Shown: in pieces, positions 8,740 through 11,596 of the stretch
Position numbering within the stretch: the first letter of the stretch is position 1
Layout: the number at the start of each line of letters is the position of its first letter
Assembly (NCBI GenBank): GCA_963668695.2
Contig: CAXXLQ010000004.1
Span: 2,272,001-2,336,000 of the forward strand
Direction of reading: 5' to 3'
Origin: Vicinamibacteria bacterium
GTDB taxonomy: Bacteria > Acidobacteriota > Vicinamibacteria > Marinacidobacterales > Marinacidobacteraceae
DNA length: 64,000 bases
Notes under the pieces: generated by a model
Seen by the model: only the letters and a program-made list of their open reading frames with translations
Database searches by the model: none
What the model was told of the DNA's origin: nothing
Position numbers and translations under genes: made by a program

Positions 8740-9047
8740 CAGCAGCCTGTGGACAAAGTCACGCGGCCCAGTTTTCCCGGTGGGGGCTCGACCGGCGATG
8801 CATCCCGGCTGAACCGCGCCACATCGTGGCGCTCTGCGTTGCGCTTCGGTCGAAACACGCTCGGGCCAGTTCTCCCGGTGGGGGCTTCTCTCTCGCGCGC
8901 CTTGTCAGCCGGGCCCCCACCGGGAGAACTGGCCCCACCGGGAGAACTGGCCCCACCGGGAGAACTGGCCCCACCGGGAGAACTGGCCCCACCGGGAGAA
9001 CTGGGCCTCACCGCTCTCGGCACTCACGCCACTTTATCCACAGGCCG
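8740..9047 (+). mobile_element. MITE-like repeat family A with five tandem 18-bp modules
   Basis: CAGCCTGTGG...CCACAGGC ends; (CCCCACCGGGAGAACTGG)x5 at 8915-9004. Confidence 0.85.
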
Positions 9048-9053
9048 CCGGGC

Positions 9054-9794
9054 ATGAGCGAGACGCTGCCGCTTCACCCGGGTGCCGGAGCGCCGCGTAA
9101 GCCGGGGTCAGGACAGGAAGTCCGCGCCCGCCGCGACCGGGTCCGGGAGCAGGTAGGGAGCGAGCGGTGGCGCGCGGGCTGCGAGGCGCTGGTGGTGGAG
9201 GCCGCTCTCGCGACGCTCCAACTGACCGGCGCCGCCCTCTCGGAGGAGGAGATTCGCGCCCTCCGCGAGGGGGCTCCTACCCCCACATTCGGGCCTTCTC
9301 TCGGAGCCCTCGGCCTTCTCGGGCGCGCTGCTCGAGATCGGGATCCGAGCGAGGAGCTGATTTCCGAGGTTCATGCGGTCGCCAGCGGGCTGACCGGAGC
9401 AAGCTCTTTTCGCACCCATCAGATCGAACCACAGTTTCAGGCGGCGAGCCTCTCCCCGCCACAGACCGTTTCGCTACGGCTCGGCGAGCTCCTTGACTGG
9501 ATTTCCGGCGCCAGCGCAAAGGATCTCGAGACCGCGCCGCGCGCGGCGCTCTTCTTTGCCCGGTTCCTGGAGATCTCGCCCTTTGAACGCGCGAACTTCC
9601 GGGTGGCGCACCTGATGCTCACCTTCTTTGCTCTCGCTGACGACCAGCCGCCCATTTGGTTCGAGGTGGAGGACGCACCGGGGATCCGGGAAGATGTCTC
9701 CCGCGCCTTCCGTTTCGATACCGGGTCGCTGACGGAACGGATCGACCGATCCCTCCACCGTTCGCTGGATCGGGTCGAAAATGCCGGCCGCTAA
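9054..9794 (+). CDS. Fic/Doc-fold protein with degenerate active-site motif
   Basis: ISEVHAVA...FR...FLEISPFERANFRVAHL aligns with Fic HPFxDGNGRxxR. Confidence 0.65.
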   Translation: MSETLPLHPGAGAPRKPGSGQEVRARRDRVREQVGSERWRAGCEALVVEAALATLQLTGAALSEEEIRALREGAPTPTFGPSLGALGLLGRAARDRDPSEELISEVHAVASGLTGASSFRTHQIEPQFQAASLSPPQTVSLRLGELLDWISGASAKDLETAPRAALFFARFLEISPFERANFRVAHLMLTFFALADDQPPIWFEVEDAPGIREDVSRAFRFDTGSLTERIDRSLHRSLDRVENAGR

Positions 9795-10287
9795 CAGCCT
9801 GTAGTGAAACCCCCGCGGCCCAGTTCTCCCGGTGGGGGCTCGGCCGGCGATCCATCCCGGCCGAACAGCCGGTGATGAAACCCCCGCGGCCCAGTTCTCC
9901 CGGTGGGGGCTCGGCCGGCGATCCATCCCGGCTGTTCACCGCGTCGCTTCGCGCCGCTCATCGTTGCGTTTCGGTCGGAATACACCCGGGCCAGTTCTCC
10001 CGGTGGGGGCTCCTCCCTCACGCGCCTTGTCAGCCGGGCGCCTCGCCCCCACCGGGAGAACTGGCCGGCCTCGGCGCTCACGCGGGTTCCACCACCGGCT
10101 GCTAACAGCCTGTGGCAAAACCCACGCGGCGTTCGACCGGCGATCCATCCCGGCTGAACCACTCCGCTTCGCTGCGTTCTGCGTTGCGTTTCGGTCGAAA
10201 TACACCCGGTATTCCTCCCTCACGCGCCTTGTCAGCCGGGCGCCTCACCGGCCTCGGCGCTCACCCGGGTTTCACCACAGGCTGTTA
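9792..10287 (+). mobile_element. Two abutting family A elements sharing TA at 10103-10104; the second (185 bp) is the minimal form
   Basis: TAACAGCCTGT at 9792 and 10103; ends GGCTGCTA 10104 and CCACAGGCTGTTA 10287. Confidence 0.88.
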
Positions 10288-10358
10288 AGGGCCCGCTACA
10301 ATCCGAAGCATCGGGTGATGCGGGGCGCCTTTTGACCGGCGCCGGCCCGGTATCCGGA

Positions 10359-10634
10359 ATGTTCCAGCGGTTCGGCCCCCTCGGCTCTCTCGTTTCGTGG
10401 GCGATGCTCCAGCAACGGCAGACGGTCGAGTTCGTGACCCTCCCGCAGACGGAACCCCCCCGCGGGATCCTGACCCTGATCCTTGAGTCCTTCGCCCTCG
10501 CCGGGACGCTGGTCCTGGCAACCGTGCTTGTCGGCCTCGGCTTCGGAATCTTCCGCATCTGGCTCATCCGCCGCTACCCGGACAACCGTTTCAACGGCAG
10601 CGGACGGGATACCCCCCGGCTCGACCTCAGTTGA
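10359..10634 (+). CDS. Small membrane protein
   Basis: One hydrophobic segment; TACAAT at 10297; stop overlaps next TTG start. Confidence 0.55.
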   Translation: MFQRFGPLGSLVSWAMLQQRQTVEFVTLPQTEPPRGILTLILESFALAGTLVLATVLVGLGFGIFRIWLIRRYPDNRFNGSGRDTPRLDLS

Positions 10635-11044
10635 CCGCGGCGGCACATACCCGGACCCCCGATCGCGTTCCGCTCGTCATCTACGACGGCGGCTGAGGCT
10701 TTTGCACCCGCGCCGCGGTCGCGGCGGCCCGATTTGCCGGCGAGCGGCCGATTCGCTTTGCTGCCTCTCAGGAGCTGACCGACGACCAATTGGTCGGGCT
10801 CGGCATCTCGCGAACTGCATGTGAAGAGCGCGTCCGCTTCAGGGACCTGAAGGGGCGGTTCCACGGTGGGGCCTTCGCGGTGAACCGGTTCCTCCTCTAT
10901 GCCGCTCCCCCGGGCCCGCGGGGACTTCCCGCGCGCATCCTGGCGGTGCTCGCCTACGCGTTTCCGCCACTCCTGCTCGCCGAACTCGCCGCCTACGAAA
11001 TCGTCGCCCGGAACCGTGGCTGTCGCCTGCTCAATCCGTCTTGA
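10631..11044 (+). CDS. DCC1-like (DUF393) thiol-disulfide oxidoreductase, probable selenoprotein (TGA at 10694-10696)
   Basis: Reads VPLVIYDGG*GFCTRAA...AYEIVARNR; matches family motifs YDGxCxxC and Y..vA.nR. Confidence 0.75.
10711..10726 (+). promoter_or_regulatory. Candidate bacterial SECIS hairpin
   Basis: CGCCGC-GGTC-GCGGCG; G-first apical loop 20 nt after the UGA. Confidence 0.55.
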
Positions 11045-11596
11045 GCAGCCCGTGGACAAGGTGAACCGGCATTCGACCGGCGATGCATCCCGGCCAAACA
11101 ACCGGTGATGAAACCCACGCGGCCCAGTTCTCCCGGTGGGGGCTCGGCCGGCGATCCATCCCGGCTGAACTGCCGGTGATGAAACCCACGCGGCCCAGTT
11201 CTCCCGGTGGGGGCTCGGCCGGCGATCCATCCCGGCCAAACAGCCGGTGATGAAACCCACGCGGCCCAGTTCTCCCGGTGGGGGCTCGGCCGGCGATCCA
11301 TCCCGGCTGAACCGCGTCGCTGCGCGCCGCTCATCGTTGCGTTTCGGTCGGAATACATCCGGGCCAGTTCTCCCGGTGGGGGCTCCTCCCTCACGCGCCT
11401 TGTCAGCCGGGCGCCTCGCCCCCACCGGGAGAACTGGCCGGCCTCGGCGCTCATGCGGGTTCCACCACCGGCTGTTCACCGCGTCGCTTCGCGCCGCTCA
11501 TCGTTGCGTTTCGGTCGGAATACATCCGGGCCAGTTCTCCCGGTGGGGGCGCCTCCCCGCTCTCGGTGCTCGCCCCACTTTGTCCAAGGACTGCTA
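11042..11596 (+). mobile_element. Composite family A repeat
   Basis: Three tandem ~70-bp left modules plus core modules; ends GACTGCTA. Confidence 0.85.

What the first reader, a model, noticed from the sequence alone, without database searches (positions are those of the whole stretch)
10631..11044. Hidden probable selenoprotein: DCC-family oxidoreductase with UxxC and SECIS-like hairpin
Seen: from TTG 10631 the frame reads VIYDGG-TGA-GFC and continues to YEIVARNR. The single TGA falls exactly on the first Cys of the DCC1/DUF393 DxxCxxC motif. The hairpin CGCCGC-GGTC-GCGGCG follows, with a G-first loop 20 nt downstream. Known: bacterial Sec insertion uses such a downstream hairpin, and Sec often replaces the first Cys of CxxC. 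The ORF track shows only the 3' part. I cannot say whether Sec forms of this family are already catalogued.
Basis: partly seen in the sequence, partly recalled or inferred. Interest (0 to 1): 0.8.

Follow-up and report, generated by a model that had tools for sequence, protein, structure and literature searches.

The report
Selenocysteine form of DCC-family redox protein
A small redox-protein gene that gene callers cut short at an internal "stop" codon is almost certainly read through as the rare amino acid selenocysteine, giving a selenium form of a poorly studied enzyme family that I did not find in the selenoprotein catalogues I searched.

Summary
TTG 10631 to TGA 11044 (+) encodes a 137-aa DCC1-like (PF04134) protein. 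Its only in-frame TGA (10694-10696) sits on the first Cys of DxxCxxC. The same TGA is present in 16 of 16 species-level genomes of this genus (76-96% protein identity). Ten of 10 orthologues from other genera have TGC there. Codons on both sides are under purifying selection (dN/dS about 0.08 and 0.11). The hairpin CGCCGC-GGUC-GCGGCG starts its loop 20 nt after the UGA and meets all four published bacterial SECIS criteria. It lies in a 23-nt run with no substitutions at all (dS 0, against about 0.9 in the rest of the gene), and no Cys form has it. selA, selB, selD and tRNA-Sec(UCA) lie on the same contig, and at least two catalogued selenoprotein genes occur in the genome. Public protein sets hold only the 83-90-aa 3' fragment. 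I found no DCC/DUF393/PF04134 entry in a 2026 catalogue table, and NCBIfam gave no match. This scan has noted Sec forms of this family before on other DNA, and I confirmed one further case in another class. Selenium insertion itself is not shown. It is a new member of a known kind.

The parts
10631..11044 (+). Complete gene for a 137-aa DCC1-like thiol-disulfide oxidoreductase with selenocysteine at residue 22. It starts at TTG 10631 and stops at TGA 11042-11044.
   Evidence: Translation. PF04134 scores 37.3 bits (cut-off 27.8) over residues 16-129. Orthologues were found in 24 of 24 genomes of the family.
10631..10633 (+). TTG start codon. It overlaps the TGA stop of the upstream gene (TTGA), which suggests translational coupling.
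   Evidence: A TTG in the same TTGA context lies 21-27 codons before the Sec codon in 15 of 15 Sec-form orthologues.
10694..10696 (+). Sec-UGA codon, at the first position of the D-x-x-U-x-x-C redox motif.
   Evidence: TGA sits at this column in 16 of 16 genomes of the genus and TGC in 10 of 10 other orthologues. The gene's true stop codon varies among TGA, TAG and TAA.
10703..10705 (+). TGC codon for Cys25, the presumed resolving cysteine of UxxC.
   Evidence: Invariant in all 25 aligned orthologues.
10709..10731 (+). 23-nt run with no substitutions, covering codons +5 to +12 after Sec (R-A-A-V-A-A-A-R). This is the nucleotide footprint of the SECIS.
   Evidence: No nucleotide varies in 15 of 15 full-length Sec forms. 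Seven consecutive 4- to 6-fold degenerate codons each use a single codon. Elsewhere, 8 of 71 such codons lack synonymous variation. dS is 0 here against 0.91 in the rest of the gene.
10711..10726 (+). SECIS upper stem-loop: a 6-bp G-C stem (10711-10716 pairs with 10721-10726) and apical loop GGUC (10717-10720), 20 nt after the UGA.
   Evidence: It is the minimum-energy fold of 10706-10731, at -12.2 kcal/mol. It meets all four bSECIS criteria quoted in PMC13188914. It is present in 16 of 16 TGA forms and 0 of 10 TGC forms. The loop has the same four letters as the E. coli fdhF SECIS, whose spacing is 18 nt.
10820..10822 (+). TGT codon for Cys64, a third invariant cysteine of this subfamily.
   Evidence: Invariant in 25 of 25 aligned orthologues.
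10790..11044 (+). The 84-aa 3' ORF that standard gene calling reports in place of the full gene.
   Evidence: ORF list. Sixteen of 24 public protein clusters are 83-90 aa, 73-98% identical, cover only 51-64% of the query, and carry no Pfam domain or name.
10332..10634 (+). Conserved upstream partner gene: a 100-aa protein of no known family with a hydrophobic C-terminal stretch. Its stop overlaps the start of the selenoprotein gene.
   Evidence: It lies immediately upstream in 24 of 24 orthologous loci of the family. No Pfam hit. Only unnamed Acidobacteriota clusters were found in the ESM Atlas. RNA-library contigs bridge the junction.

Best explanation
This is a genuine bacterial selenoprotein gene. 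It encodes a DCC1-like, thioredoxin-type thiol-disulfide oxidoreductase in which the first, attacking cysteine of the DxxCxxC motif is selenocysteine (D19-G-G-U22-G-F-C25).

Inferred mechanism: when the ribosome reaches UGA 10694-10696, SelB carrying GTP and Sec-tRNA(Sec) is held in place by the mRNA hairpin 14 nt downstream (6-bp stem, GGUC apical loop), and Sec is inserted instead of termination. The mature 137-aa protein would carry a selenenylsulfide/selenol-thiol redox centre at the N-terminus of helix 1.

The Sec form arose once, at the base of this genus of uncultured marine Vicinamibacteria (Acidobacteriota). It came from a Cys ancestor in a family that already had the Sec machinery. 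The SECIS was built inside the alanine-rich (GCN) coding sequence of helix 1.

Shown here: the codon, its conservation, the Sec/Cys pattern, the frozen hairpin, the machinery, and selection on both sides of the codon. Inferred: actual Sec insertion, the redox chemistry, and the substrate.
For: 1. The family match spans the TGA: PF04134 scores 37.3 bits against a cut-off of 27.8, over residues 16-129.
2. TGA is at the same column in G000 and in 15 of 15 other species-level genomes of the genus (76-96% identity). TGC is there in 9 of 9 orthologues from six other genera of the family and in 1 from another family.
3. Selection acts in frame on both sides. dN/dS is 0.076 over the 9 codons before the TGA and 0.11 after it, over 105 pairs. 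The real stop codon varies among TGA, TAG and TAA, but the internal TGA never changes.
4. The hairpin meets all four published bSECIS rules: a 4-nt loop, a 6-bp stem, GG at the start of the loop, 20-nt spacing, and -12.2 kcal/mol.
5. The 23 nt at 10709-10731 are invariant in 15 of 15 Sec forms, with dS 0 against 0.91 elsewhere. Seven consecutive degenerate codons are frozen, where the background is 8 of 71.
6. The hairpin is present in 16 of 16 TGA forms and 0 of 10 TGC forms. This counts as one evolutionary event.
7. All the machinery is on contig C4: selD 252.7 bits, selA 499.2 bits, selB 306 + 20 bits, tRNA-Sec 69.7 bits with anticodon UCA. selA is in 28 of 28 genomes of the family.
8. The organism uses Sec elsewhere. 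An ArsC-family (seleno)protein (NF041106, 104.8 bits, cut-off 85) and a CYCXC (seleno)protein (NF041379, 102.3 bits, cut-off 90) both carry an in-frame TGA followed by a hairpin.
9. The Sec forms are one clade (support 94/93), nested among Cys forms.
10. Contigs from RNA libraries of two studies span the upstream gene, the start, the TGA and the hairpin, with the TGA unchanged.
11. The model places U22 at the N-terminus of helix 23-36, directly after strand 15-18, as in thioredoxin-fold CxxC proteins.
Against: No experiment shows selenium in the protein.

The hairpin shows no covariation because it never varies, so the pairing itself is untested. Its energy is no better than that of shuffled sequence (z about 0). 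A similar hairpin follows 1.3-4.7% of random sites in this GC-rich genome. The minimum-energy fold of a longer stretch pairs the stem differently. Rfam has no matching model.

The frozen stretch also encodes a conserved peptide, but amino-acid conservation alone cannot explain frozen synonymous sites.

The fold evidence is weak: pLDDT 69.3, and no Foldseek match at E <= 0.001.

The RNA-library contigs may derive from contaminating DNA.

The tree is rooted on a single very long branch (5.18), so the Cys-to-Sec direction is likely but not proven.
Confidence: 0.9

Rival explanations
1. The TGA is a true stop. The functional product is the 84-aa C-terminal ORF (10790-11044), as annotated in public databases, or a 21-aa leader peptide plus that ORF. 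The conserved hairpin would serve another role, for example as a regulatory element.
For: Public gene calls give only the 83-90-aa product. A TTG exists at 10790. Nothing shows the full-length protein.
Against: Both the region between the TGA and 10790 and the 9 codons before the TGA are under strong in-frame purifying selection (dN/dS 0.076 and 0.11). The Pfam domain needs both parts. The TGA aligns exactly with the catalytic Cys of 10 of 10 Cys orthologues. An 84-aa fragment would lack the whole redox motif.
Confidence: 0.04
2. The UGA is read through, but by a near-cognate or suppressor tRNA that inserts Cys or Trp, or by Cys-tRNA(Sec) when selenium is scarce, rather than by Sec.
For: Sequence alone cannot tell which residue is inserted. 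From my own recall, Cys insertion at Sec codons is known under selenium limitation in other systems.
Against: The full Sec machinery is on the same contig. The hairpin fits the SECIS rules and is frozen. Few TGA codons in the genome have coding-like sequence on both sides: 23 sites at a 40-codon window. TGA also serves as the ordinary stop for this gene and its neighbour.
Confidence: 0.04
3. The gene is a pseudogene, or the TGA is a sequencing or assembly error: a lone nonsense change in a Cys-type DCC gene.
For: A single TGC-to-TGA change would produce it. The genome bin has 9.3% estimated contamination.
Against: The same TGA is found in 16 of 16 independent species-level assemblies, and in contigs of four further public runs (three from RNA libraries, one probably DNA) with no difference at 10694-10696. 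Selection is intact on both sides. The start codon and gene order are conserved.
Confidence: 0.01

Closest known systems
Cys-type DCC1-like / DUF393 thiol-disulfide oxidoreductases (Pfam PF04134). Arabidopsis DCC1 is described as a functional thioredoxin that affects complex I and mitochondrial ROS (passages of PMC6603150). B. subtilis YuxK is a member by my own recall.
   Same: The domain is the same (37.3 bits), as are the D-x-x-C-x-x-C register, the length, and the hydrophobic C-terminal helices. Direct orthologues with Cys exist in sister genera in the same gene neighbourhood. A Cys-type paralogue lies in the same genome at G000:C4:1575696-1575935.
   Different: The first cysteine is encoded by UGA and is followed by a SECIS hairpin. 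The Cys forms have no such hairpin (0 of 10).
Catalogued UxxC thioredoxin-fold selenoproteins: Sec-containing Trx, Grx, DsbA-like, Prx-like, redoxin, SaoT and others in Table 1 of PMC13188914.
   Same: Sec takes the N-terminal position of a CxxC-type motif at the start of helix 1. Cys homologues are common. The SECIS sits in the coding sequence just downstream.
   Different: The Pfam family is different. The strings PF04134, DCC, DCC1, DUF393 and YuxK do not occur in that table or paper. No NCBIfam model, including NCBI's selenoprotein models, matches this protein.
E. coli fdhF SECIS, the experimentally characterised bacterial SECIS.
   Same: It is a hairpin in the coding sequence right after the UGA. 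The apical loop has the same four letters, GGUC. The spacing is 18 nt against 20 nt here. Neither hairpin stands out from shuffled sequence by folding energy.
   Different: The upper stem here is a perfect 6-bp G-C helix. I could not establish a counterpart of the bulged U that I recall in fdhF. Binding to SelB was not tested.
Sec forms of DCC-family genes noted earlier by this scan on other DNA (e1-3923221, e1-1361110, e1-1085831, e1-5294752 as UxxC; e1-1512842, e1-4860522, e1-3574109 as UxxU; e1-2464955 as CxxU). These are unchecked AI notes.
   Same: Same Pfam family and same redox motif. They reach the same conclusion that gene callers truncate the gene and that catalogues omit it.
   Different: The lineages differ: actinobacteria, Rokubacteria, SAR324 and others according to those notes. 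No sequence word is shared with this protein. Here the Sec form is confined to one genus and has Cys orthologues in sister genera.

Membership tests
Bacterial selenoprotein gene (Sec-UGA with SECIS) | The in-frame UGA aligns with Cys in homologues. | tested here: met
   U22 aligns with Cys in 10 of 10 Cys-type orthologues.
Bacterial selenoprotein gene (Sec-UGA with SECIS) | The UGA is conserved in orthologues of other species, with purifying selection on both sides. | tested here: met
   16 of 16 genomes of the genus keep it. dN/dS is 0.076 upstream and 0.11 downstream.
Bacterial selenoprotein gene (Sec-UGA with SECIS) | bSECIS model as quoted in PMC13188914: a 3-9-nt apical loop, a 4-16-bp upper stem, G in the first two loop positions, 16-37 nt between UGA and loop, and MFE <= -7.5 kcal/mol. 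| tested here: met
   The loop is GGUC (4 nt), the stem is 6 bp, the spacing is 20 nt, and the energy is -12.2 kcal/mol. I did not run the bSECISearch program itself.
Bacterial selenoprotein gene (Sec-UGA with SECIS) | A nucleotide-level constraint on the SECIS beyond what the protein requires. | tested here: met
   23 invariant nt. dS is 0 over 7 degenerate codons, against 0.91 in the rest of the gene. No compensatory changes are available, so the pairing itself is untested.
Bacterial selenoprotein gene (Sec-UGA with SECIS) | selA, selB, selC (tRNA-Sec, anticodon UCA) and selD are present in the genome. | tested here: met
   All score above their curated cut-offs and all lie on contig C4.
Bacterial selenoprotein gene (Sec-UGA with SECIS) | Selenium is incorporated at the UGA position. 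| not testable with these tools
   This needs 75Se labelling, mass spectrometry or a read-through reporter.
DCC1-like thiol-disulfide oxidoreductase (PF04134) | A score above Pfam's gathering threshold. | tested here: met
   37.3 bits against 27.8 with Cys at the TGA. With the stop left unread, the six-frame search gives 26.2 bits, just below the threshold.
DCC1-like thiol-disulfide oxidoreductase (PF04134) | The D-x-x-C-x-x-C motif near the N-terminus. | tested here: met
   D19-G-G-U22-G-F-C25. D19 and C25 are invariant in 25 of 25 sequences. Position 22 is U in 15 and C in 10.
DCC1-like thiol-disulfide oxidoreductase (PF04134) | A thioredoxin-like fold with the motif at the N-terminus of helix 1. 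| tested here: inconclusive
   The AF2 model (pLDDT 69.3) has strand 15-18 followed by helix 23-36. Foldseek finds no PDB match at E <= 0.001. The best rows are nearly all glutaredoxins, thioredoxins and PDI domains, at E 0.01-0.25 and TM 0.3-0.4.
DCC1-like thiol-disulfide oxidoreductase (PF04134) | Thiol-disulfide oxidoreductase activity. | not testable with these tools
   This needs a biochemical assay.
NCBIfam selenoprotein families (NF04xxxx models, release 20.0) | A match to any curated model. | tested here: not met
   No family matched at E <= 0.1. In the same search, two other genes of this genome matched NF041106 and NF041379 above their cut-offs.

The most novel reading that the evidence does not exclude
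DCC1-like/DUF393 proteins are a selenoprotein family missing from published catalogues, one that has switched from Cys to Sec repeatedly in unrelated bacteria. This locus captures one such switch almost in the act. Sister genera with identical gene order and full Sec machinery keep Cys. One genus has UGA, plus a SECIS built from a few substitutions in the GCN-rich alanine codons of helix 1. The selenoprotein is translationally coupled to a conserved small membrane protein, which may be its partner or substrate.
Probability: 0.5. Interest if true: 0.55.

Novelty: new member of a known kind. Interest (0 to 1): 0.5.

Why it matters
Genome annotation systematically truncates this gene. In the public protein collection I searched, all 16 clusters that were at least 73% identical were unnamed 83-90-aa fragments.

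The locus adds a well-supported family to the bacterial selenoproteome. It also gives a clean natural pair, Sec genus against Cys sister genera in the same gene neighbourhood with the same machinery. That pair can be used to ask what a Cys-to-Sec switch buys and how a SECIS is born inside a coding sequence.

It also adds to the evidence that these uncultured marine Acidobacteria use selenium: besides two catalogued selenoprotein genes, their genomes carry this uncatalogued one and a MerB candidate.

The mechanism is standard Sec decoding, and new UxxC selenoprotein families are reported regularly, so the surprise for a specialist is moderate.

Tried and rejected
- **Folding energy as evidence.** The hairpin and longer stretches fold no better than shuffled sequence (z 0.57, 1.08, 0.26 and 0.00). 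I dropped this as a criterion after the genuine E. coli fdhF SECIS behaved the same way (z 0.10).
- **Rfam scan of 10600-10800.** Only chance-level hits, E >= 2.
- **Phylum-wide PF04134 search.** 221 of 401 Acidobacteriota genomes have the family. Only the 150 best of 263 matches were printed, none with a TGA. The 113 weaker matches, where TGA forms would rank, were not shown, so this search says nothing about Sec forms elsewhere in the phylum.
- **PDB by sequence profile.** Nothing relevant, best E 0.33.
- **Foldseek against PDB.** No match at E <= 0.001.
- **ESM Atlas for the upstream 100-aa protein.** Only unnamed Acidobacteriota clusters.
- **First genome-wide TGA scan, with 40-codon flanks and GC3 filters.** It missed this gene itself, because the N-terminal part is short and GC3 is 0.71. 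The lists are therefore not a complete selenoproteome.
- **One broad literature query.** It returned only generic selenocysteine papers.
- **Parts of the stretch without cover in RNA-library contigs.** These carry no weight.

Full report
**Observation.** TTG 10631 opens a frame that gives ...VPLVIYDGG-TGA-GFCTRAAVAAARF... and ends at TGA 11042-11044, 137 codons in all. The internal TGA is at 10694-10696. With Cys in its place, the product matches Pfam PF04134 (DCC1-like thiol-disulfide oxidoreductase) at 37.3 bits against a cut-off of 27.8. The match covers residues 16-129, so it spans both sides of the TGA. The motif is D19-G-G-U22-G-F-C25, so the TGA falls on the first Cys of DxxCxxC. Standard ORF finding reports only 10790-11044, 84 aa. 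The hairpin is C10711-C10716 / GGUC 10717-10720 / G10721-G10726, with 20 nt between the UGA and the loop.

**Sec machinery.** The window lies on contig C4 of a 4.1-Mb bin (91.7% complete, 9.3% contamination). The same contig carries:
- selD, 252.7 bits against a cut-off of 125;
- selA, 499.2 against 267.9;
- selB, 306.1 + 20 bits in one frame, 327.9 against 242;
- tRNA-Sec, Rfam 69.7 against 47, with anticodon UCA by ARAGORN.

selA is above its cut-off in 28 of 28 genomes of the taxonomic family, across 7 genera. My own scan for TGA codons with coding sequence on both sides found two genes that match NCBI's curated (seleno)protein models above their cut-offs. One is ArsC-related (NF041106, 104.8 against 85). 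The other is CYCXC (NF041379, 102.3 against 90). Both have UxxC and a hairpin 18-22 nt after the TGA. The organism therefore decodes Sec.

**Comparative test.** I searched 41 genomes (G000, 15 of the same genus, 9 of the same family, 16 of the same order) with the protein. This gave an orthologue in 24 of 24 other genomes of the family and 1 of 16 genomes of the other two families. Extracting and aligning the hits showed the following:
- TGA is at the same column in G000 and in all 15 other genomes of the genus, at 76-96% protein identity. One of these is split over two contigs and was left out of the alignment and the later counts.
- TGC is at that column in all 9 orthologues from the six other genera, and in the single orthologue from another family.

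Each genome represents a different species, so the TGA is neither an error nor a recent nonsense mutation.

Selection acts in this frame on both sides of the TGA. Mean pairwise dN/dS over 105 pairs is 0.076 for the nine codons before it (dS 0.65) and 0.11 after it (dS 0.91). The true stop codon drifts among TGA (6), TAG (4) and TAA (5), while the internal TGA never changes. A TTG start embedded in TTGA, where it overlaps the stop of the upstream gene, is present in 15 of 15 Sec forms.

**The SECIS.** The hairpin fulfils the four criteria of the consensus bacterial SECIS model as quoted in the figure legend of PMC13188914 (I read passages only). Those criteria are a loop of 3-9 nt, an upper stem of 4-16 bp, G in the first two loop positions, spacing of 16-37 nt, and MFE <= -7.5 kcal/mol. 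Here the values are GGUC, 6 bp, 20 nt and -12.2 kcal/mol.

On its own this is weak evidence. In this genome, 4.4-4.7% of random sites or TGA triplets are followed by a hairpin that passes the same test, or 1.3-1.5% if a G[G/U] loop start is required. The energy does not beat shuffled sequence.

The strong evidence is evolutionary. Across the 15 full-length Sec forms, the 23 nt at 10709-10731 do not vary at all. The seven codons R-A-A-V-A-A-A, all 4- or 6-fold degenerate, each use a single codon. Among the other 71 codons with an invariant degenerate amino acid, only 8 lack synonymous variation, and only 2 of those 8 are 4- or 6-fold. dS is 0 here against 0.91 elsewhere.

The identical hairpin is present in 16 of 16 TGA forms. 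No hairpin passing the same test is present in any of the 10 TGC forms. This is one evolutionary event, not 26 independent observations. Because the stem never varies there is no covariation, so the pairing itself is not demonstrated.

The E. coli fdhF SECIS, fetched from the K-12 record, has the same four-letter loop, GGUC, 18 nt after its UGA. It is likewise indistinguishable from shuffled sequence by energy.

**Evolution and setting.** In a maximum-likelihood tree of the 25 orthologues, built with the Sec/Cys column removed, the Sec forms are one clade (support 94/93) nested among Cys forms. One change of state suffices. The root rests on one very long outgroup branch (5.18), so the Cys-to-Sec direction is likely rather than proven.

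Record titles of the related public MAGs read Candidatus Marinacidobacterium sp., Vicinamibacteria bacterium or Acidobacteria bacterium. A run labelled sponge metagenome holds the gene on an 831-nt contig.

The gene order Fic-domain gene, 100-aa unknown gene, DCC gene, FAA-hydrolase gene is kept in 24 of 24 loci of the family, for Sec and Cys forms alike. The 100-aa upstream protein has a hydrophobic C-terminal stretch and no known family.

Contigs from RNA libraries of two studies bridge the upstream gene, the start, the TGA and the hairpin without a difference at the TGA. Contaminating DNA in these libraries cannot be excluded.

**Fold.** An AlphaFold2 model built from the 25-sequence alignment has moderate confidence (pLDDT 69.3). 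It places U22 at the N-terminus of helix 23-36, after strand 15-18, within a beta-alpha-beta ... beta-beta-alpha order followed by two C-terminal helices. Foldseek against the PDB gives no hit at E <= 0.001. The best weak rows are almost all glutaredoxins, thioredoxins and PDI domains. This agrees with the family's description but is not proof.

**Comparison with what is known.**
- *Public protein sets.* Of 24 clusters at E <= 1e-10, the 16 that are 73-98% identical are all 83-90 aa, cover 51-64% of the query, and have no Pfam domain or name. Full-length relatives (118-154 aa, mostly with PF04134) are 59-71% identical, that is, Cys forms.
- *NCBIfam.* Release 20.0 gives no match for this protein.
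- *Full-text searches.* 'DUF393' with 'selenoprotein' found 0 papers. 'DCC family' with 'selenoprotein' found 0. 'DCC', 'thiol-disulfide oxidoreductase' and 'selenocysteine' together found 1 unrelated paper. 'DUF393' alone found 7 papers; none of the 5 listed titles concerns selenoproteins.
- *Catalogue papers.* String searches found no PF04134, DCC, DCC1, DUF393 or YuxK in the 2026 catalogue review PMC13188914, including its Table 1. They found no DCC or DUF393 in the main texts of BSepDB (PMC13326102) or deep-Sep (PMC12013277).
- *Supplements.* The one BSepDB supplement held was cut when stored. Its 4.0 million characters contained only strain names with 'DCC'. I did not read the supplements of the other papers, nor the BSepDB web tables, and these could list the family.

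This scan has noted Sec forms of the DCC family on other DNA at least eight times. Those are unchecked AI notes. None shares sequence words with this protein. As a partial check, I searched 111 genomes of an unrelated class. Of the 101 PF04134 matches, all of them printed, one has an in-frame TGA. It reads LLWDGG-U-GFC at the same column and is followed by a 7-bp hairpin with a GGGUC loop. That genome has selA at 575 bits. Genomes flagged as unpublished (G192, G064, G535) enter only the tallies.

**Verdict.** This is a bona fide, mis-annotated selenoprotein gene (confidence about 0.9) that works by ordinary SelB/SECIS decoding. It is a new member of a known kind: a UxxC thioredoxin-type selenoprotein in a family that I did not find catalogued as Sec-containing. 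The insertion of selenium, the substrate, and any link to the upstream membrane protein remain inferred.

Noticed in passing
window 9722-10293 and 11026-11557: The gene pair 10332-11044 is bracketed by two blocks of the same modular repeat family: 71-nt tandem units, 3.3 copies at 11073-11307, plus shared modules of 37-172 nt. The 167-aa 'ORF' at 9832-10335 is made of these repeats and is probably not a gene. In most sister genomes the FAA-hydrolase gene follows the DCC gene directly. Contigs of other strains diverge right at the stop codon (loose ends at 11044/11046). Earlier notes of this scan describe MITE families in this genome.
   Followed up: partly
L059 (G000:C4:3732499-3733200), TGA at C4:3732955: A MerB-family gene (PF03243, 97.3 bits) has an in-frame TGA in the context ...DIVFT-U-ANMLFF..., with coding-like sequence on both sides. 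It scores below the cut-offs of the MerB and SaoL NCBIfam models. It is a possible further selenoprotein. I did not check its conservation in relatives.
   Followed up: partly
L057 (G000:C4:1986165-1986725) and L058 (G000:C4:3419943-3420542): Two catalogued selenoprotein genes of the same genome: an ArsC-family (seleno)protein (NF041106, U-T-S-C) and a CYCXC (seleno)protein (NF041379, U-S-T-C). Their hairpins have loops starting 22 and 18 nt after the TGA.
   Followed up: partly
window 10332-10634: A 100-aa protein of no known family, with a hydrophobic C-terminal stretch. It sits immediately upstream of the DCC gene in 24 of 24 family loci, and its stop overlaps the next start (TTGA). It may be a functional partner.
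   Followed up: partly
G000:C4:1575696-1575935 (-): A second DCC1-like gene, of the Cys type (41.8 bits, no stop inside), about 32-36% identical to the Sec form. Weak matches to it appear in most genomes of the genus.
   Followed up: no
L164 (G491:C2:193379-193899): In an unrelated class, another DCC1-like gene reads LLWDGG-TGA-GFC and is followed by the hairpin GUCGCUU-GGGUC-AAGCGAC. That genome has selA.
   Followed up: partly
window 8826-9794: A Fic/DOC-domain gene (PF02661, 31.3 bits) whose N-terminal part weakly resembles collagen-like repeats. It is conserved upstream of the locus across the family.
   Followed up: no
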